Part shown: positions 818 through 60,169 of the stretch, one piece after another
How the letters are laid out: each line of letters starts with the position of its first letter
How positions within the stretch are numbered: the stretch's first letter is position 1
Assembly: GCA_947041315.1 (NCBI GenBank)
Contig: CAMRDW010000001.1
Span: 840-64,839 of the forward strand
Source of the DNA: an uncultured Enterovibrio sp.
GTDB taxonomy: Bacteria; Pseudomonadota; Gammaproteobacteria; Enterobacterales; Vibrionaceae
DNA length: 64,000 nt
Reading direction: 5' to 3'
Position numbers and translations under genes: made by a program
Notes under the pieces: model-generated
What the model was told of the DNA's origin: nothing
The model's database searches: none
The model's input: only the letters and a program-made list of their open reading frames with translations

Positions 818-944
818 TATATCCGTCGCCTTTGAAACTGGGTGGGTGTTGCCTGCTCTCGTTCAAGCCCATCACAGAGTCGATTTATCCTCAGGGCCTT
901 CATTCGTTTGCCGTAGGCACGCATCTTCAAGTGTTTTGGGTATA
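818..944 (+). repeat. ERIC-like MITE, full length 127 bp
   Basis: TATATCCGTCGCCTTTGAA...CTTCAAGTGTTTTGGGTATA; TA ends and imperfect terminal inverted repeats. Confidence 0.9.
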
Positions 945-1349
945 TATCAGATGAAAACAGATTATTCTGTTTTCATTGATGCGTCTATCCCACAGGATTA
1001 AAGCCAAAAGACCCTTCTCCCACTTTTTCTGTAAAGGTTTTTTTGTTTTTTTGCATCCAACCATTTGGCGACGAAGCCGGTGTGGAATAATGAACAAAAG
1101 AAAGACAGAGACGGAATAAAGAAGGAGGAGTCGTCGTAGGAGGAGGGCGCAAGATAGAGAAAGAAAAGGCGGTTTGCGTCCGAAATTGAGAGGTGAAACG
1201 GCAGGTTTAAATTCGATGTTTAATGGGCGGTGTTTTTGCTTCGGTATTCTTGCATTCTTCTCACGTTTGAATTCATTTTTGTTTGAACTGGCATGGCAGT
1301 AGAAGGTCAGGAGGTCAGAGACCTCCGCTTATCCGATTACATGTGTTGA

Positions 1350-1661: not shown

Positions 1662-2062
1662 ATTTGCCTCCTTAGGCATTGACGCCTTGCTAAGAGGCGT
1701 ATCACTGTTGGCTAAAAGGATTTGGAACGAACGACAGCCAACGATTAGACGTCCGTTTAAGTCACTTTTGAGCACTTTAAAGGTCCATTATGGAAAGACG
1801 TTTGAGGTGCTTTTTGTTGTGGTTTTGTTGGAAAGAGACTTTTGTTTTTTTAAGAGTATGTCGATTCTTCACGCTGTCAACCTGCCTAAGGAGACTTCTT
1901 AGATTGCAGTAAAAATCGACACACTTGATATATAAAAGAGAGTCCGTTTCTTTTAAGCTTCGAATTTTTAAAGGATCAAGCAAAGTGCTCATTTTAGATA
2001 AAAAAAGGTGCATTTTAGATAAATAAGAGAAGCAGACAATGTGTCTTGAATGAGGTTTTTTT

Positions 2063-2401: not shown

Positions 2402-2950
2402 ATGGATGCCTTGACATTGTTAACACAGCGCCGCTCTATGGCGCGCTTGATCTTTCCGGGTCCTGATGAGGCGGTGTTAGATCAGATTTTACGGGCTGGA
2501 ATGCGTGCTCCGGATCACGGCGCGTTAAGACCTTGGGAATTTGTGGTCGCGCAAGGGGCTGGGCTGGATAAGCTTTCTTCTCTTTTTGAAGAGGCCGCGA
2601 TAACAGATAAAGAACCTATTCAATCCATTGCACGGGCCGCAAAAGCCCCTTACCGCGCCCCCTTGATTATCTTGGTCATTGCACGAACGAAACCGCATGA
2701 GAAAGTGCCGTGCATTGAGCAAGTGATCAGTGCGGGCTGTGCGGTACAGGCCATGCAAATGGCGGCGGTGGCTCAAGGATTTCAAGGAATATGGCGTACT
2801 GGGAAATGGGCTTATCATTCTTTGGTTCGGGATGCTTTTCATTTAAAGTCTGAAGATGCAATTGTTGGTTTTTTGTATATTGGAACCCCTGAATGCCCAA
2901 TAAGCCCTCCTTTGGAAGGCGATATAAAACAATATGTAAAACATCTTTAA
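2402..2950 (+). CDS. ydjA: NAD(P)H nitroreductase, YdjA family
   Basis: MDAL..L.QRRS, RAPDHGALRPWEF, GIWRTG motifs; upstream of topB as in enterobacteria. Confidence 0.9.
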   Translation: MDALTLLTQRRSMARLIFPGPDEAVLDQILRAGMRAPDHGALRPWEFVVAQGAGLDKLSSLFEEAAITDKEPIQSIARAAKAPYRAPLIILVIARTKPHEKVPCIEQVISAGCAVQAMQMAAVAQGFQGIWRTGKWAYHSLVRDAFHLKSEDAIVGFLYIGTPECPISPPLEGDIKQYVKHL

Positions 2951-2986
2951 TCTATCGACGCCCCTGTAAAAGGAAGCCCTCCCTTT

Positions 2987-3113
2987 TATATCCCTGTCGC
3001 CTTTGAGGGGGCGGCTTTTTGGTGCGTTCTCAACGCTCAATCACTGAGTTAATCTGTGCGCTGGGGGTTTATTTTCTTGTCGCGGGCGTCTGTCTTCAAT
3101 TCCTTTGGGTATA
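2987..3113 (+). repeat. ERIC-like MITE, 127 bp, diverged
   Basis: TATATCCCTGTCGCCTTTGAG...AATTCCTTTGGGTATA. Confidence 0.8.
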
Positions 3114-3213: not shown

Positions 3214-5163
3214 ATGGCACTTCTTTTTGTTGCAGAAAAACCCAGTTTAGGGCGCGCTATTTTGGCCGCTTTACCAAAACCGCATAAAAACCATGAAGGG
3301 TATTGTGAAGCGGGTAATGGCGATATCGTCACTTGGTGCATCGGACATTTGTTGGAGCAGGCGGCTCCAGAAGTGTATGATGAGAAATACAAAAAATGGC
3401 GCAAAGAAGATCTGCCTATTGTGCCTGAAAAATGGATATTAATTCCTCGAAAATCCGTTTCAAAACAACTTTCCGTCCTAAAAGCCCTTCTTAAAAAAGC
3501 AGAACACATTGTTCATGCCGGTGATCCCGATAGAGAAGGGCAATTGCTGGTGGATGAGGTGTTTGAATATGCCAAGTTACCTTTGCGAAAAAAACACGCC
3601 ATTCAACGTCTTTTAATCAGTGATCTTAATTTACACGCAGTGCAAAAAGCGTTAACGAAGTTGCAGAGCAATTTAGATTTTATTCCGCTTTCTGTTTCTG
3701 CTTTGGGCCGAGCGCGGGCGGATTGGCTTTATGGTATTAATATGACCCGTTTATGTACCCTTCAAGGTCAAAAAATGGGGTACAACGGGGTGCTTTCCAT
3801 TGGGCGTGTTCAAACCCCTGTTTTAGGCTTGGTCGTATTTCGCGATTTGGAAATTGAACATTTTGTCTCTAAGCCCTTTTATGAAGTGATCGCAAAAATT
3901 AAAACCCAAAATGATGAAGTGTACGAAGGCAAATGGAAACCCAGTGCGGCCTGTGAGCCTTATATGGATGAAGATAAGCGCGTTTTATCTAAAGCCTTGG
4001 CTGAAAATGTGATTGGACGCATTTTAGGAAAAAAAGGCCAGGTCTCTTTGGTAAAAGAAAACAAAAAAAAACAGGCTCCTCCTTTACCTTATAGCTTGTC
4101 GGCTTTGCAAATTGACGCATCAAAGCGCTTTGGAATGAGTGCGCAGACTGTGCTTGACACCTGCCAGCAACTTTATGAACGCCATAAATTGATCACTTAT
4201 CCTCGTTCTGACTCGCGTTATTTACCAAAAGAGCAGCTGCATGATGCTAACAAGGTCACTCAGGCCATCAGCTCCTCATCTGCTCAGTTAAAAGAGGCGG
4301 TTGAAAAAGCCAATTTAACCTTGAAAAGTAAAGCGTGGAATGATGCAAAAGTGAGCGCGCACCATGCCATTATTCCAACGTCAAAATCGTTAAACACCCA
4401 CTCCTTGTCTTCTTTAGAAGCCCATATTTATGAATTGGTGGCCCGTCAGTATTTAATGCAGTTTTATCCTGATTTTGAATTTATGGAAAAAGAAATTAAT
4501 ACTGACATTTCAGGAGGCTTATTTATATCAAAGCAAAAAGAAGTGCGCTTTGACGGTTGGAAGGCTTTGCTGGGTCCAAAAACGACGTCAATGAAAAGTA
4601 AGGATAAAAAAGATTTAGAAGATGAAGGCTTTAGCAAAATAAAATTGCCCAATGTGCAGCAAGGAGATGAGGTCGATTGCATTGATGCACAACTTCTAGA
4701 AAAACAAACAAGCCCTCCCAAATATTTAACGGATGCTTCGTTGCTCTCGTCGATGACGGGGATTGCACGTTCCGTAAAAGATCCTGCGATAAAAAAGGTG
4801 TTAAGAGAAACAGACGGATTAGGCACTGAAGCGACGCGAGCGGGGATCATTGAACTTCTTTTTAAGCGCCAATATTTAGAGCGAAAAGGAAAAGAAATCA
4901 GAGCGACTGCGATAGGACGAGAATTGATCACCGCGTTACCTCAGCAAATGGTGATCCCTGATATGACCGCGCATTGGGAATCGCAGCTCACCGCAATAAG
5001 CAAGAAAGAAACCAAATATAACGATTTCATGCGCCCATTAACTCAAAATATTTTTCAATGGGTTGAAGAGGTACAGAAGGTGAATTTTAAGGGATTGCAA
5101 GGGAAAGGCGTTGAAAAAGTCCCCTATAAAAAAACCGCAAAACGCAAAACAAAACGTTCTTAA
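3214..5163 (+). CDS. topB: DNA topoisomerase III
   Basis: TOPRIM AEKPS and GDPDREG, active-site LITYPRSD, GLGTEATRAGII. Confidence 0.95.
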   Translation: MALLFVAEKPSLGRAILAALPKPHKNHEGYCEAGNGDIVTWCIGHLLEQAAPEVYDEKYKKWRKEDLPIVPEKWILIPRKSVSKQLSVLKALLKKAEHIVHAGDPDREGQLLVDEVFEYAKLPLRKKHAIQRLLISDLNLHAVQKALTKLQSNLDFIPLSVSALGRARADWLYGINMTRLCTLQGQKMGYNGVLSIGRVQTPVLGLVVFRDLEIEHFVSKPFYEVIAKIKTQNDEVYEGKWKPSAACEPYMDEDKRVLSKALAENVIGRILGKKGQVSLVKENKKKQAPPLPYSLSALQIDASKRFGMSAQTVLDTCQQLYERHKLITYPRSDSRYLPKEQLHDANKVTQAISSSSAQLKEAVEKANLTLKSKAWNDAKVSAHHAIIPTSKSLNTHSLSSLEAHIYELVARQYLMQFYPDFEFMEKEINTDISGGLFISKQKEVRFDGWKALLGPKTTSMKSKDKKDLEDEGFSKIKLPNVQQGDEVDCIDAQLLEKQTSPPKYLTDASLLSSMTGIARSVKDPAIKKVLRETDGLGTEATRAGIIELLFKRQYLERKGKEIRATAIGRELITALPQQMVIPDMTAHWESQLTAISKKETKYNDFMRPLTQNIFQWVEEVQKVNFKGLQGKGVEKVPYKKTAKRKTKRS

Positions 5164-5217: not shown

Positions 5218-6810
5218 TTATTCGAAGACAAAGACTTGGTTCTTTCCTTTGTTTTTTGCTTTATACAAGGCGGTGTCTGCATCTTCAAAAAGTTGTTGCG
5301 ATCCATTTATTTCTAACGGAATTGTCGTTTTTCCACCCACGCTGATGGTTACATTTTTTTCAATCGGAGAGCCGTCATGTGCAATCGCGAGATCGGCGAC
5401 GGCTTTGAGTGCGCGTTTGGCCACAATTTGTGCCCCCTCTTTATCACAATTGGGTAAAAGAAACACGAACTCTTCCCCTCCAAATCGTGCAAGTAAGGCG
5501 CCAGCACGGCGTTCAACTCGGCTCAGGGCGCTTGCTACTTTTATTAAGCATTGATCTCCTGCGCTGTGCCCATAAGTATCATTAAATTCTTTGAAGTGAT
5601 CGATGTCGACAATCAGCAAAGAGATGTTGGTTTTAAACCGTAAAGCACGGCGCCACTCTTCGTCGAGTTTCTCGTCGAGCATTCTTCTGTTTGGAACATG
5701 GGTGAGGCTGTCTTCTTTTGAAATCAGGGTTAAACGTCGATTTATTTTCTCTAGCTCTTCGGTGCGCTCTGTGACTCTCTGTTCTAAATACATATTGAGA
5801 TTGATGAGGCTGTCTTGAGCACGAAATTGAATTAAGTGCTGAGACATGATGATCCCCAGTAATTTTAAAACTTCAATGTGATAACTTTTGATGGGGTGGC
5901 TTGTTATTAGATTGTCGCAAGCAATCCAGCCAATGGGTTGATTCCCCTCCCAAAGCGAAATGGTGGCATTCCAGCCTCTCCCGACTTCGATGTTGTTTTG
6001 ATATAAGGGCGTATCATGATAAATGGCGATGTGCTTGCCTTTATCTAACGTCTCTTTTGCATGAGCGTGTTGTTCTATGTAGGTGCTGTACCATTTTTCA
6101 TTTTGGACTGTGCCGTGGATATCGGTGCCGTAGGTTCCTTGAATTAACCCGTTGTGATCTTTATATAAAAAGACAGCTATACGATCAATTTCAAGCGTAT
6201 GAATGCATTCATAAACGGCGGTGTGAAGCATTTTATCTATCGAGGTGGCACTCCATAATTTTAAAGAAATATCATGGAGAATATGGAGCTGTTCCAGCAA
6301 GCGTTTTTGAGCGTCTATTTCTTGGTTTAAACGTTTTCTTGTGTGTTCGTGGGCCCGTTTTTCTTTTTTGTTTGCTTTGAGCATTAAAAGTGGGTGTAAT
6401 TTTCCACTCAAAAGATGCGACAGCATTTTGATGGCCTCTTCATCTACAAAGATTGGATCATCAAAAGACAGAAAAAGACAGGCAAATTCTTCTTCCAGCG
6501 CGTAAAGGGGCAGAGTCAATTGGGTGGCGTCTTTATTCTGTTCTGTGCTTTGTTCAAAATGGCCGTTTTTCAGTAATTCAGTGTATTTTTTTTCGAGAAA
6601 AAGAGGGGGGGAATGAACTTGAATTTCATTTTGATACAGGGAACTCCATTGATTCCACTTGTCTTTTTCTTTTATTAAAATAACCCCGTCAAGAGGTGGT
6701 CCGTTCTTTGAAAGAACCTTCCAAAAGACCAAAAAAAAAGTGTAAAAATCTTTTGAGGCTGAAATCGCATCAGAAAGCTTTAGACAAAAGGAATGATCCA
6801 GAGCACGCAT
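5218..6810 (-). CDS. Diguanylate cyclase with GAF-like domain, coiled coil and GGDEF domain
   Basis: DSLTHVPNRR, DIDHFKEFNDTYGH, RFGGEEF, ADTALYKAKNKGKN. Start set at ATG 6810 with AAGGGA RBS; longer ORF begins in an ERIC. Confidence 0.9.
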   Translation of the reverse strand: MRALDHSFCLKLSDAISASKDFYTFFLVFWKVLSKNGPPLDGVILIKEKDKWNQWSSLYQNEIQVHSPPLFLEKKYTELLKNGHFEQSTEQNKDATQLTLPLYALEEEFACLFLSFDDPIFVDEEAIKMLSHLLSGKLHPLLMLKANKKEKRAHEHTRKRLNQEIDAQKRLLEQLHILHDISLKLWSATSIDKMLHTAVYECIHTLEIDRIAVFLYKDHNGLIQGTYGTDIHGTVQNEKWYSTYIEQHAHAKETLDKGKHIAIYHDTPLYQNNIEVGRGWNATISLWEGNQPIGWIACDNLITSHPIKSYHIEVLKLLGIIMSQHLIQFRAQDSLINLNMYLEQRVTERTEELEKINRRLTLISKEDSLTHVPNRRMLDEKLDEEWRRALRFKTNISLLIVDIDHFKEFNDTYGHSAGDQCLIKVASALSRVERRAGALLARFGGEEFVFLLPNCDKEGAQIVAKRALKAVADLAIAHDGSPIEKNVTISVGGKTTIPLEINGSQQLFEDADTALYKAKNKGKNQVFVFE

Positions 6811-6831
6811 TATCAATGATCCCTTGATTGA

Positions 6832-6960
6832 TATACCGGTTGTTTTTGAGATGAAGTGGGTCTTTTGGCCGTCCTTGTTCAACCCAATCACATAGTGCAC
6901 CTATGCTCAAGGGTTTCACTCACTTGCCGCCGAGACGCAACTTCAAGTGTCTTGGGTATT
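6832..6960 (+). repeat. ERIC-like MITE, near full length
   Basis: TATACCGGTTG...CACTTGCCGCC...CTTCAAGTGTCTTGGGTATT. Confidence 0.85.
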
Positions 6961-7096
6961 GAGGGGTAAAAAGAGTACCCAAAAAAGTATGAGATAAATT
7001 ATGACAGCTATTGATTTTGAATTTTGCGTAAAAGGTTTCAATTTCGAGAGACATCACAGGCGCTAAAGGCGGGACTTAATGAGGAGGGGGCATTCT

Positions 7097-7140
7097 TATT
7101 CCCCTCGCTTTTGAAGATGAGGGGAGCTTGTGTTGGCTCT
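7097..7140 (+). repeat. ERIC-like MITE, 5' fragment
   Basis: tattcccctcgcttttgaagatg...tgttggct matches the 5' end of full copies. Confidence 0.5.
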
Positions 7141-7173
7141 TTTTGTTTGATGAGCCTGTTCCTTTTTTTCACA

Positions 7174-7806
7174 TTAGACGACGTTAAACCTTAATACCGT
7201 TTTAAGCTTTTCAGGGGCTATCTTTCGAGCATCTGACAGGTATATTTCTCTGTGTATTTTTGAAACGCGCGTCATTCCTTTTTCTCTTGCATAGTCTTCC
7301 ATTTTTTCAAAAGTACGGGGTTCATCTTCATATCGGCCTAAATGCAACATTTGTACACATTTTCCTTCTGAAATGGTTTTAAATTCAACTTGTTCCAGCA
7401 AAGGATTCGGTTTTTTTTTCTTAAGATTGTCCAATATCTCTACATACAATGCCTTGTTAACAAAATCGGGTTGTCGGATCATTAACTCATAAACAAAGTC
7501 TTGTTTATTGACTGCCCCATTAAATATTTTTTTTGCTTCTTCGTTGATATCCCAAAGACCTTCTAATGGATAAACGGTGAAATCAAAATAATTTTCTGGT
7601 TTTTTCTCCATGCGTTTTGGTTGCATTTTGATCCCATAGGCAATGGAATACAAGGTTCCAACAATGTCTGAAAACACCTTTTCAGCTGGACTCCCTTCGC
7701 CACGCAAAGTGATGAATTTAAACCTTGGTACATCAATACATTGCGGCTTACTTTTAGGAAGATATAAGGTTTTTTCCCTTTTTCTCCATTCGTATTTATC
7801 TGACAT
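7174..7806 (-). CDS. GyrI-like small-molecule-binding domain protein
   Basis: LYSIAYGIKM, VYPLEGLW, MIRQPDFV, GKCVQMLHLGRYEDEP, HREIYLSD, LKTVLR are typical of stand-alone GyrI-like proteins. Confidence 0.85.
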   Translation of the reverse strand: MSDKYEWRKREKTLYLPKSKPQCIDVPRFKFITLRGEGSPAEKVFSDIVGTLYSIAYGIKMQPKRMEKKPENYFDFTVYPLEGLWDINEEAKKIFNGAVNKQDFVYELMIRQPDFVNKALYVEILDNLKKKKPNPLLEQVEFKTISEGKCVQMLHLGRYEDEPRTFEKMEDYAREKGMTRVSKIHREIYLSDARKIAPEKLKTVLRFNVV

Positions 7807-7837
7807 ATTCTTCTTTCCTCGATCCGGATTAAAGTCT

Positions 7838-7948
7838 TATAGCCAAGACGCTTGACGTTGCGCGCCTGCGGCAAGCGCGTGCACCCTCTAAGTATGGATA
7901 GACTCTGGGGCGTAGGTCATACCCACTCGCTTCGAAGGCGAGGGGGGA
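7838..7948 (-). repeat. ERIC-like MITE, reverse orientation, degenerate
   Basis: tatagccaagacgcttgacgttgcg...gcggcaag...cttcgaaggcgagggg. Confidence 0.7.
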
Positions 7949-7999
7949 GAAAATAAAGAGACCCGACCGGGCAAGTGTAAATTTGCTGTTTTAAATAGG

Positions 8000-8578
8000 T
8001 TATTTGGAACAAATCGCGGTGACTTGGCAGCGTTTTCCTGTTGATTTTGATGATTTATCAAATGAAATTCTTAGTTTTCGCAAGGACGCGGTGAGTGCGA
8101 ATGATAAATTGACATTTTCGATGACAAAGCAGCCTTTCGATTCACATCTTTTATCAAAGCCAATATGTTCATCTCCGTGAGCACCTATGCCATAGCTATC
8201 AATCACAATAAAAAGAGGTGAATTTAAAAGAAGAACATCAAGAACATCACTTTGAAGAGCGGTATTCCTGCTGGCATATTCAGGGGTGCCATATTCATTT
8301 TTCTCACTGTTTCCAGTAAAAAGAATAATGGCTTTTCCTGAAATATCCAGAGAGTCAAAATCATTCACTGAAGGCATTTTTTCGGTGCAGTTTATTGTGA
8401 CGGCCTCCACTTCGTAATCGGCTTTTTCCGGTTCGGCTTCATAACAATCAATGTGCGTGCCAATATGTCCAAAAGCACTGACTGCGTCAGATTGACGTTT
8501 TGCCCATTCATAGGCAGAGTGCCCCTCTTCAACAACAAGGCTTATATTTTCTTCATACATAGGTTGGATCTCTTTCAT
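8000..8578 (-). CDS. Cyclase family (kynurenine-formamidase-like) metal hydrolase, short form
   Basis: GHIGTHID motif, LFTG, IDSYG, FVIENV. Confidence 0.75.
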   Translation of the reverse strand: MKEIQPMYEENISLVVEEGHSAYEWAKRQSDAVSAFGHIGTHIDCYEAEPEKADYEVEAVTINCTEKMPSVNDFDSLDISGKAIILFTGNSEKNEYGTPEYASRNTALQSDVLDVLLLNSPLFIVIDSYGIGAHGDEHIGFDKRCESKGCFVIENVNLSFALTASLRKLRISFDKSSKSTGKRCQVTAICSK

Positions 8579-8591
8579 GTATTTAACTGAA

Positions 8592-8714
8592 TATACCCGT
8601 CGCCTTTGACGTTGCGTGCTGGCGGCGCCCTCTCACCCCAATCACACACTACCTCTATGCTCAGGGGCTTCGTTCGCTTGCTGCCTACACGCATCTTCAA
8701 GTGTCTTGGGTATA
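8592..8714 (+). repeat. ERIC-like MITE, 123 bp
   Basis: TATACCCGTCGCCTTTGAC...CTTCAAGTGTCTTGGGTATA. Confidence 0.9.
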
Positions 8715-8879
8715 AAAACGCTGAAACTCAAAGCGTCCTGCTGAACCGTTACTTTAAATCAAGATTGAAAGGAAAACTTTTCAGGTCGCGCAAGAGGCGG
8801 GCACAAAGATGATAAAAAAACAAAGCCTCCACTGCAAGAGGCTGGCAAGGTTGCGGTTCTGGAGGCGAGACACCTTTGG

Positions 8880-9461
8880 CTAGCTCATCAGGCGAGATGC
8901 CTGTTTGTCAAGTGAATATATCCAGCGAGTGCATTTTACACTGCCTTTTTTAAAATCTTTTTCTTCTTTGATTTTAAAACCCGCTTTATCCAAAGACTGC
9001 TTAAATGCATCTTTGGCCTCGCTGCCATTAGGCAGGCCACCGTCTTTTACGACGATAAGTTGGCCACTCGACTTAAGGATCCGATGAATTTCTTTTAGGC
9101 CTAGTGCTTGATTGTGCCAATGATCAAAGGAGTCAAAAGCAAATACAAAGTCAGCTGTATCATTTTCAATTGGTATCTCTTCAGCTGAACCTTCATGGAA
9201 TTCAATACGTCCTGTCGATGGATGGTCAGCTGTTTGCTCTATAGCAATCTCAACCATGCGAGGTACTGGATCGATGCCTATCAAGGTGCCGCTTGTTACT
9301 TGATCAGAAGCATACCTTAGAGCGCAGCCTGTACCACAACCAATATCGACGACTGTTGCGTTTTCAAAAAGCGTTAATGCTTCGAGTCCAAGCTCATTTG
9401 TGTCGTAATTTCCGTATTTCTCTGCATACCACTCTGCAGTTTCGGTATCCCATTGACTCAT
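8880..9461 (-). CDS. Class I SAM-dependent methyltransferase
   Basis: VVDIGCGTG, GIDP, GSAEEIP..DTAD, RILKSSG motifs; AGGAG RBS. Confidence 0.9.
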   Translation of the reverse strand: MSQWDTETAEWYAEKYGNYDTNELGLEALTLFENATVVDIGCGTGCALRYASDQVTSGTLIGIDPVPRMVEIAIEQTADHPSTGRIEFHEGSAEEIPIENDTADFVFAFDSFDHWHNQALGLKEIHRILKSSGQLIVVKDGGLPNGSEAKDAFKQSLDKAGFKIKEEKDFKKGSVKCTRWIYSLDKQASRLMS

Positions 9462-9476
9462 TAACGACTCCTGTGG

Positions 9477-9545
9477 GCATAACGCCTATGTTGATAGCTG
9501 TAAAAGTTGAGCGCTATAAAATGGAAAGCTATAAAAAATGCTGGC
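9477..9545 (-). other. Possible right half of an integron attC site with core site GTTATGC
   Basis: Minus strand ...gcgctcaacttttacagctatcaacataggcGTTATGC-ccacAGGAGtcgttaATG; left half absent, an ERIC starts at 9546. Confidence 0.45.
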
Positions 9546-9673
9546 TATACCCGTCGCCTTTGACGCAGGCTGGGTGTTTACTGTGCGTTTCGACCCGAAC
9601 AGATTGCGCCTCTATATGCGCAAGGGTTCATTCGCTTAGGTGTTCAGATGCAAGGTCAGGCTTTTTGGGTCTT
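9546..9673 (+). repeat. ERIC-like MITE, diverged
   Basis: TATACCCGTCGCCTTTGACG...ctttttgggtctt. Confidence 0.8.
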
Positions 9674-9999
9674 CGCCGATTTTTTTTCGTTGAAGAAAAC
9701 AAAGCTGAAAAATCAAGCTTGCACTGGGGTAATCAAAAAAAGGGGGCTGACACCCTGATGGCGCCGCGCTTGAGTGTGCCCAGAAAAACCTCCATCAAAG
9801 AGACCGCGGATAGACGTTCCCAATTAATCCCCATTTTTGCGTGCCGAATACCTTTGAAAATCGATTGATACGCATTAATGAGATTTATTTTTGCTCAGAG
9901 CGGACATTCTTCGCTGGGTTTTTATATTAAGGTTGAAAAAAAGAAGCGTGCTAAAGAAGATAGAGCACATTGTAACCGATTATCGAGGATCATATGTAT

Positions 10000-10590
10000 A
10001 TGAAACAAAGTCATTTTTTTGCACATCTTGCCAGAATGAAGCTGATTTATCGCTGGCCATTAATGCGCAGTGTTGCGCCTGAAAATATTTCAGAGCACAG
10101 CCTTCAAGTTGCTTTTGTCGCGCATGCTTTGGCCCTGATTGAAAATAAGAAATTTGAAGGACATTTTTCACCTGAGCGCATTGCTCTATTGGGGATGTTT
10201 CATGATTGTACCGAGGTTTTGACGGGGGACTTGCCAACGCCTATAAAATACTACAATCCGGAGATTGCGAATGAATATAAGAAAATAGAAAAAATCGCAC
10301 AAGGTAAATTGATAAGCATGTTACCGAAAGAATTTCATGAAGATTATCGGCCCTTGATGGACAGCTTGGTGATAGACAAGAATGAATACCGATTGGTAAA
10401 ACAAGCCGATGACATATGCGCCTATCTAAAATGTCTTGAGGAGTTGTCTGCAGGAAATCATGAATTTGAACAGCCAAAACGCCGACTTGAAAATTTACTC
10501 GAACAAAACGCAACCCTTGCGACCCAGTATTTCTTGCAAACCTTTGGGGACAGTTTTGAATTAACCTTGGATGAAATCAGCGATGATTGA
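10000..10590 (+). CDS. yfbR: 5'-deoxynucleotidase, HD family
   Basis: [32 protein letters not shown] motif (MFHD), [13 protein letters not shown]. Confidence 0.95.
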
Positions 10591-12835: not shown

Positions 12836-14173
12836 TTGACCCATTTAGGGCAAGTTGTTGCCAGATTAATCGATGATTTGTCCATCATTTCTCCGCTTCC
12901 ATCTCAGATTTGTGTCAATTTCACATGGCCTTCTCATGTGGAGCCGGTGGCTTGGTTTAATGCTCAGTCTCTTTTTCCTCAGTTTTACTGGCAAACCCGT
13001 GACAGCAATGAAGAAGTGATCGCGCTTGGACAGTGTGCGTCCTTTACTGATCCGACAGAGGCTGAAAATGCCCTTTTGGAAGGGCAACGTATCTGGGGAG
13101 GTTGTGCTTTTGAACCCCACACCCAAAGAGGTGAAGACGAGGTCCCATCGTCGTATTTTTTCCTTCCTCAAATTGAATTGATACGCAAAGGATCGGAATG
13201 GTCATGTGTTGTGAATGTGGGGAAGGGGCGTGCTGATATTCTGACTGCATTGTCTGCGTTATGTTTTTTTGTCCGACCTCTTTATAAACCGGAGTGGCGG
13301 GTGCTTTCAATGGCACATGAGCCGCCCTATTCTCATTGGGAAAAGAGGCTTGAAAAAGCATTAGAAGCGATAAAACACACTGAGTTACAAAAAGTGGTTT
13401 TAGCCCGAAAAACGACCTTGGTTCTGAATGGTTTGGTTTCAGCTGTTCAATTACTGCATGCCAGTATCCATGAGAATCAAGGCAATTTTCATTTTTTATT
13501 GGCAATGGATGAAAAACGCTCTTTTGTAGGATCGTCTCCAGAAAGGCTCTTTTTTCGGCGTCAATTGGGAATGAAAACAGAAGCGCTTGCCGGCACGGTA
13601 GGGCGAGGTGGAACCTTGAATGACGATGTCTCTTTGGCCAACTGGCTTTTAAACGATGAAAAAAACCGCTACGAAAATAAATTGGTTGTGGACGATATTT
13701 TAGATCGCCTCCTTTCTTCTTGCCGTGAAATCCACATCGAAAAAGAGCCCCATCTGGTTCGATTAAGACAAGTACAACATTTAAAAAGAAACATGACCGT
13801 GAGCCTCAAGAGGGGGATTTCAAATGCAAGCTTGCTCAATGTGCTCCACCCTACGGCGGCGGTCGCGGGACGTCCTCGAAAAGCCGCCTTGGCTTTTATT
13901 GCAAAAGAGGAAGGTTTTGATCGAGGTTGGTACAGTGGCACTGTCGGGTATTTAAGCCCTGAGCGCACTGAATTTTGTGTGGCGATAAGAAGCGCGGTGT
14001 TATCAGAAAAAAACATTGCCTTGTATGCCGGTGCTGGCATTGTTCCTGGCTCTCAACCTGAAAATGAATGGAAAGAGCTTAATAGAAAGATTTCTACCCT
14101 TATGAGCTTGCTCAATTCAGGGGATGAGAAAGTGGCATGCACATTAAAACGCAGGGAGAAAATGGCAGGATGA
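12836..14173 (+). CDS. menF: Isochorismate synthase (menaquinone)
   Basis: KVVLARK, GSSPERL, TEALAGT, LHPTAAVAG, RGWYSG, CVAIRSA, YAGAGIV; TTG start with GAGAGG RBS. Confidence 0.9.
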   Translation: MTHLGQVVARLIDDLSIISPLPSQICVNFTWPSHVEPVAWFNAQSLFPQFYWQTRDSNEEVIALGQCASFTDPTEAENALLEGQRIWGGCAFEPHTQRGEDEVPSSYFFLPQIELIRKGSEWSCVVNVGKGRADILTALSALCFFVRPLYKPEWRVLSMAHEPPYSHWEKRLEKALEAIKHTELQKVVLARKTTLVLNGLVSAVQLLHASIHENQGNFHFLLAMDEKRSFVGSSPERLFFRRQLGMKTEALAGTVGRGGTLNDDVSLANWLLNDEKNRYENKLVVDDILDRLLSSCREIHIEKEPHLVRLRQVQHLKRNMTVSLKRGISNASLLNVLHPTAAVAGRPRKAALAFIAKEEGFDRGWYSGTVGYLSPERTEFCVAIRSAVLSEKNIALYAGAGIVPGSQPENEWKELNRKISTLMSLLNSGDEKVACTLKRREKMAG

Positions 14174-55685: not shown

Positions 55686-56381
55686 ATGTTTAGTTTCGTT
55701 TTTCAAAATGATGATTTTATTTTGATTGATAAACATCCAGGGATCAGTGTTCATAAAGATGAAAACGAAACATCGCTTTTGCTTGAAATTGCGAAAGTAA
55801 CGGGTGATAAGCAATTATATCTCATTCATCGTCTTGATAAAATGACGTCGGGTCTTTTGTTATTGGGGCGTCATCAAGAAGCGGCCTCTTTATTGTCTTC
55901 TCTTTTTGCACAAAGAAAAGTAGAAAAGTATTACTTGGCTTTGTCATCTAAAAAACCGAACAAAAAACAAGGGGCCATTATAGGTGACATGTCTAAAAGT
56001 CGACGTTCTATGTGGAAATTGCTCTCAAGCAGAGAAAATCCGGCGATAACGCAGTTTTTTTCAATGTCTGCCGGTCAAGGATCCCGTGCATTTCTTTGCA
56101 AGCCCTTAACGGGAAAAACCCATCAAATACGCGTGGCATTAAAAAGTCTTGGTTCAGCGGTTCTTGGTGATGAGATTTATGGGGGTGCTAAAGCAGATAG
56201 AGGGTACCTACACGCCTATTCTTTGCGTTTTATATATAAAGAAAAAGAATTTAATTTTATTGTACCACCAACAATTGGGACACAATGGAGTCTGCCAAAG
56301 GCGGCTTGGTCGCGCCCTTTTGAAATGAGTTGGCCTGTATTACTAAATAAGAAAAAGAATGATTATACCCAAAGGAATTGA
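55686..56381 (+). CDS. RluA-family pseudouridine synthase (TIGR01621-like)
   Basis: DKHPG, HRLDKMTSG, TGKTHQIRV, GDEIYG, LHAY. Confidence 0.9.
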   Translation: MFSFVFQNDDFILIDKHPGISVHKDENETSLLLEIAKVTGDKQLYLIHRLDKMTSGLLLLGRHQEAASLLSSLFAQRKVEKYYLALSSKKPNKKQGAIIGDMSKSRRSMWKLLSSRENPAITQFFSMSAGQGSRAFLCKPLTGKTHQIRVALKSLGSAVLGDEIYGGAKADRGYLHAYSLRFIYKEKEFNFIVPPTIGTQWSLPKAAWSRPFEMSWPVLLNKKKNDYTQRN

Positions 56382-56490
56382 AGCTGCGTGTAGGCGGCAA
56401 GTGAATAAAACCCCTGAGCATAGATGGGCTCTATGATTGGGTTGAGCGAGCGAAGCCTACACCCACGCAACTTCAATGGCGACAGGTATA
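56364..56490 (-). repeat. ERIC-like MITE, 127 bp, overlapping the last 6 codons of the upstream CDS
   Basis: TATACCCAAAGGAATTGAAG...CTTCAATGGCGACAGGTATA. Confidence 0.92.
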
Positions 56491-60042: not shown

Positions 60043-60169
60043 TATACCCAAAGTAATTGACGTTGCGTGTAGGCGGCAAGTGACTGACGCCCCCGAGCGT
60101 AGATGGACTCTGTGATTGGGCTGAACGAAACTAGCCAACATCCACACCGCTTCAAAGGCGACGGGTATA
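60043..60169 (-). repeat. ERIC-like MITE, 127 bp, well conserved
   Basis: TATACCCAAAGTAATTGACG...CTTCAAAGGCGACGGGTATA. Confidence 0.93.

What the first reader, a model, noticed from the sequence alone, without database searches (positions are those of the whole stretch)
7174..9673. Candidate fossil integron cassette cluster with ERICs at every junction
Seen: three co-oriented, unrelated single genes (methyltransferase, cyclase, GyrI-like), each with an ERIC just upstream. Two have GTTRRRY right before the start (GTTATGC 9483-9477; GTTAAAT 8587-8581); such a 7-mer occurs about once per 1,000 positions at equal base frequencies. The GyrI stop lies in GTCTAAT (RYYYAAC-like). No integrase is nearby. 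Known: Vibrionaceae carry cassette arrays; cassettes are usually promoterless single ORFs bounded by GTTRRRY and RYYYAAC. Inference: cassettes stranded in the core chromosome were locked in place when MITEs destroyed their attC sites, and may be expressed from MITE-derived signals, a route to cassette domestication.
Basis: partly seen in the sequence, partly recalled or inferred. Interest (0 to 1): 0.7.

Follow-up and report, generated by a model that had tools for sequence, protein, structure and literature searches.

The report
Decayed integron cassettes among ERIC repeats
Three small accessory genes in a Vibrio chromosome look like former integron gene cassettes that have lost their recombination sites, and the ERIC repeats between them are part of a genome-wide burst of about 800 to 1,170 copies, not a feature special to this spot.

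Summary
Three co-oriented, unrelated genes (SAM methyltransferase, cyclase-like, GyrI-like) lie on the minus strand. ERIC elements lie at 9546-9670, 8592-8715, 7837-7945 and 6832-6959, with a fragment at 7097-7135.

The ERIC pattern is not exceptional. This 3.69 Mb genome has 758 full-length ERICs (1,167 loci). 127 ERIC-anchored 2.9 kb stretches hold four or more.

Cassette ancestry is supported by comparison with homologs:
- All three genes are absent from 23 congeners.
- The nearest relative keeps only the last ~48 nt of the GyrI gene.
- The methyltransferase shares an exact 5' boundary (G|TTATGCCCA...) with homologs that sit behind attC or attI sites. Everything left of GTT differs in every case.
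- The closest GyrI homolog and two cyclase homologs have a significant attC directly after the stop codon.

No attC survives here. Two covariance models that recover 103 attCs in related arrays, and attCs beside homologs in other taxa, find nothing in 6800-10000. The candidate segments fold no better than shuffles.

That ERICs destroyed the attCs, or drive expression, is not shown.

Verdict: attC-less ex-cassettes outside the integron, a known and predicted outcome, in an ERIC-saturated lineage. Moderately interesting.

The parts
9546..9670 (-). Degenerate ERIC copy (J0), 62 nt upstream of the methyltransferase cassette core site
   Evidence: ERIC profile HMM positions 6-129, 38.4 bits, E 3.8e-11
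9462..9483 (-). Cassette 5' boundary and 5' UTR of the methyltransferase: G|TTATGCCCACAGGAGTCGTTA, then ATG
   Evidence: 16-19 of 22 nt identical to the same stretch in L100, L098 and L085. Sequence left of GTT is unrelated in all four: attC, attI-like, attC, and here none.
8880..9461 (-). Class I SAM-dependent methyltransferase, 193 aa; ex-cassette gene with a C-terminal extension of 7 aa
   Evidence: PF08241 E 3e-21. Closest homologs are 73% and 69% identical and flanked by attC on both sides. The extension contains TTGACAAACAGG where homologs have the attC start ATAACAA(A/G).
8817..8843 (-). Intrinsic-terminator-like hairpin with a T-run after the methyltransferase
   Evidence: AGCCTCTTGCAGTGGAGGCT followed by TTGTTTTTTT. 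The wider 103 nt stretch 8810-8912 is not attC-like: fold z -0.88 and no covariance-model hit.
8592..8715 (-). Well-preserved ERIC copy (J1), ending 31 nt upstream of the likely cyclase start
   Evidence: ERIC HMM positions 2-129, 115.5 bits. Weak Rfam V_AS5 match, 26.7 bits, below the gathering score.
8000..8560 (-). Cyclase-like (PF04199-related) protein, probably 186 aa. The stop codon lies in AAATAACCTATTTAAAAC, which resembles the R''/L'' start of a Vibrio-type attC.
   Evidence: Homologs are 185-186 aa, the closest 81-84% identical. Homologs in Motilimonas (attC 64 bits) and an Ignavibacteriales MAG (36 bits) have an attC right after the stop. The resemblance here is by eye only; fold z +0.38.
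7837..7945 (+). ERIC copy (J2), in the opposite orientation, ending 30 nt upstream of the GyrI-like start. More ERIC-end-like sequence follows to about 7975.
   Evidence: ERIC HMM positions 2-125, 48.3 bits, E 3.4e-14
7174..7806 (-). GyrI-like small-molecule-binding protein, 210 aa
   Evidence: PF06445 E 3e-16. The closest homolog (75%) has an attC of 44 bits starting 9 nt after its stop. The last ~48 nt survive in the nearest relative G018.
7097..7135 (-). ERIC 3'-terminal fragment downstream of the GyrI-like gene
   Evidence: ERIC HMM positions 91-129, 11.6 bits, E 0.007. Conserved in G018.
6832..6959 (-). ERIC copy (J3) between the GyrI-like gene and the GGDEF gene; shared with G018, so older than the split of the two species
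   Evidence: ERIC HMM 95.5 bits. It lies in the block that is 95% identical to G018:C235.

Best explanation
Window 7174-9483 holds three former integron gene cassettes (methyltransferase, cyclase-like, GyrI-like). They sit in the chromosome between a GGDEF gene and yfbR, away from the genome's own integron.

**Origin (inferred).** The integron integrase placed them there. Either cassettes inserted at a non-canonical genomic site, with further cassettes added next to the first, or a piece of an array was relocated.

**Present state (shown).** Their attC sites no longer exist as foldable, recognisable sites, so the genes can no longer be excised and now behave as ordinary accessory genes. What remains:
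- the methyltransferase's exact 5' crossover point with its conserved ribosome-binding leader;
- short stretches resembling R''/L'' boxes at the 3' ends of the methyltransferase and cyclase genes.

**The ERICs.** They are later arrivals. They belong to a burst confined to this species and its nearest relative, which placed a copy roughly every 3-5 kb in intergenic DNA. They need not have caused the attC loss.

**Possible ERIC effects (inferred).** Each ERIC now lies in or next to a 5' leader. By analogy with Yersinia ERICs it may change mRNA stability. ERIC copies also provide homology for deletions such as the one that removed this block in the nearest relative.
For: **Accessory status.**
- No orthologs in 23 congeners or 13 other genera of the family.
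- In the nearest relative G018, homology runs from topB to 46 nt inside the GyrI 3' end and resumes at window 9690. Between these points G018 has different DNA.

**Different sources.**
- Gene GC content is 43%, 40% and 36%.

**Cassette context of homologs.**
- Methyltransferase, L085: attC hits immediately before and after the gene.
- Methyltransferase, L100: a six-attC array with the gene flanked at 1272-1343 (40 bits) and 1927-2024 (28 bits).
- Methyltransferase, L098: first cassette behind an attI-like site that is 36/39 identical to this genome's own attI on C286.
- Cyclase: Motilimonas attC at 64 bits and Ignavibacteriales MAG attC at 36 bits, each right after the stop.
- GyrI: L095, 44 bits, and L152, 23 bits.

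**Boundary.** Core site plus UTR is 16-19/22 identical and the ORF 77-78% identical, while sequence left of GTT is unrelated in all four contexts.

**attC loss.**
- R1 and R2 with filters off find nothing in 6800-10000.
- Candidate segments fold at z -0.37, +0.35, -0.88 and +0.38. The true attCs upstream of the homologs fold at z -4.55 and -3.49.

**ERIC background.**
- 758 full-length copies and 1,167 loci.
- The burst is limited to G000 and G018 among 24 congeners.
- No ERIC in any homolog locus or in six related integron arrays.

**Literature.** Genomic insertion of cassettes, and their domestication by attC loss, are described or proposed in bioRxiv 10.1101/2022.09.11.507474.
Against: - Only the methyltransferase has an exact, shared boundary.
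- For the cyclase, 26 of 28 homolog loci scanned have no attC beside the gene, and L092 also had no hit. For GyrI, 49 of 51 have none. Those two genes could have arrived by ordinary gene transfer.
- GTTAAAT is probably not a core site.
- The attC models were trained mostly on Vibrio-type sites. One short own-genome attC scored only 8.9 bits, so a strongly divergent attC could be missed.
- The assembly has 325 contigs, so the distance from this locus to the integron is unknown.
Confidence: 0.6

Rival explanations
1. This is an ordinary variable locus. The three genes arrived by generic horizontal transfer with no integron involved, and the ERICs are lineage-wide background. The resemblance to cassettes is coincidental.
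For: - Most cyclase and GyrI homolog loci have no attC.
- Several lie in ordinary operon-like contexts.
- No attC is found in the window.
- The ERIC cluster is unexceptional.
- The locus also differs in G018, where it holds an IS30-like fragment and a lipoprotein ORF.
Against: - The methyltransferase homology starts exactly at G|TT in four independent contexts, two behind attC and one behind attI. That is the signature of integrase crossover.
- The closest known GyrI homolog is attC-associated.
- Cyclase homologs at 66-71% identity occur as cassettes in two distant taxa.
Confidence: 0.2
2. One reading: ERIC insertion into the attC sites inactivated them and locked the cassettes in place, and ERIC-borne signals now drive transcription.
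For: - ERIC ends lie 4 nt (J1) and about 3 nt (J2) from where the next cassette's core site would be expected.
- At the end of the resident array on C87, an attC 5' half is fused to ERIC positions 89-129 through a shared GCAGCCAACAC.
- Array-associated contigs carry many ERICs; C149 has 9 hits in 9 kb.
Against: - A MITE insertion should leave both attC halves on its two sides. Joining the flanks of J1 gives no attC-like palindrome and only gappy similarity to homolog leaders.
- J0 ends 62 nt from the core site, and the stretch between does not fold.
- The ERIC next to the C149 attC actually abuts a group II intron end, not the attC itself.
- Promoter-like sites are at chance level and none lies in an ERIC upstream of a gene.
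- ERICs are everywhere in this genome.
Confidence: 0.15
3. The block is a live cluster of attC sites without an integrase (CALIN) that the integrase encoded on C286 can still mobilise.
For: - The genome encodes an intact-looking integron integrase of 331 aa, 387 bits against TIGR02249.
- The genes are co-oriented and single, as in arrays.
Against: - No attC with either model on either strand.
- No structure above shuffles.
- The conserved AAC of the methyltransferase R'' box reads GAC.
Confidence: 0.03

Closest known systems
CALIN / SALIN elements and genomic (attG) cassette insertions (Cury et al. 2016 and Neron et al. 2022 from my own knowledge; Loot et al., bioRxiv 10.1101/2022.09.11.507474, read)
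   Same: - Cassette-derived genes lie outside an integron with no integrase nearby.
- They are co-oriented single ORFs.
- The 5' boundary is at G|TT.
- Domestication after attC loss is explicitly proposed in that paper.
   Different: - CALIN and SALIN are defined by detectable attC sites. Here none is detectable, so attC-based tools would not call this locus.
- Cassette origin rests on comparison with homologous cassettes.
- ERIC elements fill the spacers.
ERIC / IRU miniature inverted-repeat elements (Hulton et al. 1991; copy numbers as reviewed in PMC10969869)
   Same: - Imperfect palindromes of about 127 nt with TATACCC...GGGTATA ends.
- Intergenic and in both orientations.
- Present in Vibrionaceae.
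   Different: Copy number and density are higher than the reported record. This genome has 758 full-length copies in 3.69 Mb, against 711 in Photorhabdus luminescens. The burst is limited to two of the 24 congeners sampled.
MITE-flanked class 1 integrons of Acinetobacter (Gillings 2009; Domingues 2011, 2013; cited in PMC10969869)
   Same: MITEs are physically associated with integron-derived DNA. Two ERICs in the same orientation (J0 and J3) bracket the three genes.
   Different: - There, identical MITEs flank a complete integron and are thought to mobilise it.
- Here the flanking copies are divergent (38 and 95 bits) and J3 is older than the species split.
- Nothing here indicates that the block moved as a composite.
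Group IIC-attC introns in chromosomal integrons
   Same: Another mobile element that invades attC sites. It is present in this genome's own array (C247) and next to the attC that precedes the DUF1801/glyoxalase cassette upstream of the methyltransferase cassette in L085.
   Different: None is present in the window region.

Membership tests
Integron gene cassette (by descent) | 5' end at the integrase crossover G|TTRRRY, with unrelated sequence upstream in independent copies | tested here: met
   Methyltransferase only. GTTATGCCCA... is shared with L100, L098 and L085, and the left flanks are unrelated. For the cyclase and GyrI genes the boundary cannot be placed.
Integron gene cassette (by descent) | Own attC site (R''-L''...L'-R' imperfect palindrome) directly after the ORF | tested here: not met
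   R1 and R2 with filters off give no hit in 6800-10000. Fold z-scores are -0.88 to +0.38, against -3.5 and -4.6 for true attCs.
Integron gene cassette (by descent) | Close homologs found as attC-bounded cassettes in arrays | tested here: met
   Methyltransferase: L085, L100, L098. Cyclase: L106, L103. GyrI: L095, L152.
[quoted passage not shown] | Two or more detectable attC sites close together | tested here: not met
   Zero attC hits in the region. IntegronFinder's own model was not available.
[quoted passage not shown] | No integron integrase nearby | tested here: met
   The only TIGR02249 match above the cut-off is on contig C286. None lies on contig C1.
ERIC (enterobacterial repetitive intergenic consensus) MITE | Imperfect palindrome of about 127 nt with conserved terminal inverted repeats; multicopy; intergenic | tested here: met
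   The consensus from 150 own copies is TTTATACCCAAGACACTTGAAG...CTTCAAAGGCGACGGGTATAT. The four junction copies score 38-115 bits. The genome has 1,167 loci.
MITE-derived promoter driving a downstream gene | Sigma-70-like promoter inside the MITE, oriented towards the gene; transcription start in the element | tested here: inconclusive
   The consensus scan finds no promoter-like site in the ERICs on the gene strand, and the total equals the shuffles. RNA data were not obtainable.

The most novel reading that the evidence does not exclude
In this ERIC-saturated Vibrio lineage, the MITE burst may itself erode integron recombination sites. ERIC copies would land in or recombine with attC sites, through microhomology such as GCAGCCAACAC. 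That would strip cassettes of their mobility and fix them as chromosomal genes, both inside the resident array and at outlying mini-arrays such as this one. This would be a MITE-driven route to cassette domestication.
Probability: 0.15. Interest if true: 0.6.

Novelty: new member of a known kind. Interest (0 to 1): 0.38.

Why it matters
Integron cassettes are usually recognised by their attC sites, so cassettes that have lost them are invisible to standard tools. This locus shows that such genes can still be traced by comparison with their mobile relatives, down to the exact crossover base. It gives a concrete natural example of the predicted end state of cassette insertion outside integrons: fixation after attC loss. 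It also flags a Vibrio lineage with an exceptional ERIC burst, which would be a useful system for asking how MITEs and integrons interact. The three genes themselves have no known special function.

Tried and rejected
1. **Regular-expression plus minimum-free-energy scans for attC in the own genome.** Far too strict. They found 2-6 sites and missed known ones. Replaced by covariance models.
2. **Position weight matrix of the attC L'-R' end.** The methyltransferase site scores -1.9 because of a 1 nt shift. Hundreds of genomic sites score above 8. Not discriminating.
3. **R1's best window hit, 7051-7189.** It lies on the wrong strand, scores 15 bits with E 0.28, and disappeared with the broader model R2. 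Treated as noise.
4. **In-silico removal of ERIC J1 and alignment of the joined spacer to homolog leaders.** Only the last ~35 nt before the start codon align convincingly. No restored attC.
5. **GyrI stop in GTCTAAT as an R'' box.** The real R'' of the closest homolog lies 12 nt after its stop, and the sequences do not align.
6. **"ERIC abuts attC" on contig C149.** The intervening CCATGCTGGGCGTA is the end of a group II intron, so this is not evidence for ERIC insertion into an attC.
7. **Specific functions for the three proteins.** NCBIfam gives only generic methyltransferase matches below the cut-offs and nothing for the other two. The cyclase-like protein has no sequence match in the PDB.
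Full report
**1. What is there**

On the minus strand the window reads as follows:
- yfbR, divergent, at 9994-10590 (+)
- a methyltransferase at 8880-9461
- a cyclase-like gene at 8000-8578, with a likely true start at 8560
- a GyrI-like gene at 7174-7806
- a GGDEF gene at 5218-6900

A profile built from 150 ERIC copies of this genome places elements at 9546-9670 (-), 8592-8715 (-), 7837-7945 (+) and 6832-6959 (-). A 3' fragment lies at 7097-7135. GTTATGC does not strictly fit GTTRRRY.

No integrase lies on this contig. The genome has an integron integrase on contig C286, scoring 387 bits against TIGR02249. An attI and cassettes lie beside it.

**2. Is the ERIC pattern more than chance?**

No.
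- The genome (3.69 Mb, 325 contigs, 41% GC) holds 1,167 ERIC loci, 758 of them full length.
- That density is above the published record of 711 copies in Photorhabdus luminescens (PMC10969869).
- 127 ERIC-anchored stretches of 2.9 kb contain four or more copies.
- The burst is confined to this genome and its nearest relative G018. The first-look candidate counts are 713 and 819, against 0-35 in 22 other congeners.
- None of six related integron arrays, and no homolog locus, contains an ERIC.

**3. Are the genes vertically inherited?**

No.
- None has an ortholog in 23 congeners or 13 other genera of the family.
- G018 (yfbR 96% identical) shares topB, the GGDEF gene, ERIC J3 and the ERIC fragment at 95% identity. 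The shared block ends 46 nt inside the 3' end of the GyrI gene.
- Homology resumes at window 9690.
- In between, G018 has an ERIC end, a small lipoprotein ORF and transposase fragments.
- So at least the GyrI gene was present before the two species split, and G018 later lost the block.

**4. attC test**

I built two covariance models.
- R1 was built from 24 attCs taken next to intI in six congeners, plus four attCs from this genome. The consensus structure has 20 pairs, 11 of them with compensatory changes.
- R2 was built from the 103 attCs that R1 recovered, all on the expected strand.
- With filters off, neither model finds anything in 6800-10000 on either strand.
- R1's best window hit was 7051-7189, on the wrong strand, at 15 bits and E 0.28. 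It vanished with R2.
- The candidate segments 9474-9548, 8810-8912 and 7950-8006 fold no better than shuffles, with z between -0.88 and +0.38. The true attCs upstream of the methyltransferase homologs give z -4.55 and -3.49.
- One caveat on sensitivity: a short own-genome attC scored only 8.9 bits with R1.

**5. Where do the closest homologs sit?**

*Methyltransferase.*
- P0105 (73% identical) in L085 has attC hits at 3940-3987 and 4569-4680, immediately either side of the gene. Its neighbours are DUF1801 and glyoxalase genes.
- P0106 (69%) in L100 sits in a six-attC array, flanked by sites of 40 and 28 bits.
- P0109 (68%) in L098 follows a sequence that is 36/39 identical to this genome's own attI. 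It is therefore a first cassette.

*Cyclase.*
- The Motilimonas homolog (66%) has a 64-bit attC right after the stop and another attC upstream.
- An Ignavibacteriales MAG copy (71%) has a 36-bit attC at the stop.
- The other 26 loci scanned have none beside the gene.

*GyrI.*
- The closest homolog (75%, L095) has an attC of 44 bits beginning 9 nt after the stop.
- L152 has one at 23 bits.
- The other 49 loci scanned have none.

**6. The boundary**

The methyltransferase leaders align as follows:
- window: GTTATGCCCACAGGAGTCGTTA|ATG
- L100: GTTATGCCCATAGGAGTAGATA|GTG
- L098: GTTATGCCCATAGGAGTATATA|GTG
- L085: GTTGCCCTTAGGAGTAGATA|ATG

They are 16-19/22 identical, and the ORFs are 77-78% identical. 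Everything left of GTT is unrelated in each pair. A homology break exactly at G|TT in four contexts, two behind attC and one behind attI, is the mark of integrase crossover. This is the strongest single result.

At the 3' end the homologs carry TGGCATAACAA(A/G) just after the stop. The window has TTGACAAACAGG inside a 7-codon extension of the ORF, with the conserved AAC changed to GAC. An intrinsic-terminator-like hairpin follows.

The cyclase stop lies in AAATAACCTATTTAAAAC, which resembles the start of a Vibrio-type attC. This is by eye only.

GTTAAAT aligns with internal leader sequence of the Psychromonas homologs. The real core site of one of them, GTTAGAC, lies 68 nt upstream of the start codon. 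GTTAAAT is therefore probably not a core site.

**7. ERIC versus attC**

- ERIC ends lie close to the expected positions of the next cassette's boundary at J1 and J2. Removing J1 in silico does not restore an attC.
- At the end of the resident array on C87, an attC 5' half is fused to ERIC positions 89-129 across a shared 11-mer. This is one real example of an ERIC-linked attC truncation.
- The apparent ERIC-attC contact on C149 is in fact next to a group II intron end.
- Causation at the window locus is therefore open.

**8. Expression**

- The promoter scan equals the shuffles, and none of the promoter-like sites lies in an ERIC on the gene strand.

**9. Comparison with known systems**

- Cassettes outside integrons (CALIN, SALIN), their insertion by the integrase at GWT genomic sites, and their possible domestication through attC loss are described in bioRxiv 10.1101/2022.09.11.507474.
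- This locus fits that end state. It fails the attC-based definition of CALIN.
My tests agree on the core site and on the mutated R''-like stretch, but show no foldable half-site.

**10. Verdict**

- Cassette ancestry is well supported for the methyltransferase and plausible for the other two genes.
- The attCs are gone.
- The ERICs are lineage-wide background whose causal role is unproven.
- This is a new member of a known kind, of moderate interest.

Noticed in passing
whole genome (G000) and G018; e.g. window 818-946, 56363-56490, 60043-60169: There is a lineage-specific ERIC burst. This 3.69 Mb genome has 758 full-length copies and 1,167 loci, and the nearest relative has about as many. 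The other 22 congeners have essentially none. The density exceeds the published maximum for Photorhabdus luminescens. The burst probably explains why the assembly has 325 contigs.
   Followed up: partly
window 1681-1774 (-): This is the best attC-model hit in the whole window (R2 19 bits, E 0.05; R1 12.6 bits). It has a recognisable L''/L' pairing but lacks the GTTA end. It lies about 20 nt from the small ORF at 1350-1661. It may be another decayed cassette site.
   Followed up: no
G000 contig C87, about 13564-13625 (L081 about 5565-5626), minus strand: At the distal end of the resident cassette array, an attC 5' half (ACATAACAAATAAGAATAAATTTCGCC) runs straight into ERIC positions 89-129. The join is at the motif GCAGCCAACAC, which the genome's short attC type and ERIC share. 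A tyrosine-recombinase-like gene follows on the other strand.
   Followed up: partly
L057 (G018:C235) 715-818 versus window 7174-7250: In G018 the GyrI-like gene is reduced to its last ~48 nt. An ERIC terminus (TTTATACCCGTCGCC) lies about 40 nt upstream of the remnant. It aligns with TATACCTGTC in the window's GyrI coding sequence. This hints at a deletion through ERIC-end microhomology.
   Followed up: partly
L077 (G000:C247) 3825-4049 (-); L085 2876-2976 (-): Group II intron domains (Rfam RF02001, 43.7 and 34.2 bits) lie against attC sites, in the orientation opposite to the cassettes. The motif GTTCATGCCCATGCTGGGCGTAYACAA that precedes several attCs in this genome appears to be the intron end. 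These look like group IIC-attC introns in this genome's array and in the array that holds the closest methyltransferase homolog.
   Followed up: partly
L098 2953-2990 versus G000:C286 1718-1756: A metagenome scaffold carries an attI-like site 36/39 identical to this genome's attI, with the methyltransferase as first cassette. The 760 nt upstream show no integrase reading frame, and a SAICAR synthase gene lies beyond.
   Followed up: no
window 8596-8715 (-): Rfam family V_AS5 (Vibrio antisense RNA AS5, RF02818) matches the ERIC copy weakly, at 26.7 bits against a gathering score of 96. That family may itself be an ERIC-derived transcript.
   Followed up: no
L092 / L102 (Shewanella subflava) 2940-3000 and 3560-3600: A chromosomal cyclase homolog (78% identical) is preceded by CTCCCTAAGCCGATGTTAAGC, a good match to an attC L'-R' end with a degenerate partner upstream. 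It is followed by a 32 nt mini-palindrome, GCTTAACGCAT...ATGCGTTAAT. It may be another cassette in the process of losing its attC sites.
   Followed up: no
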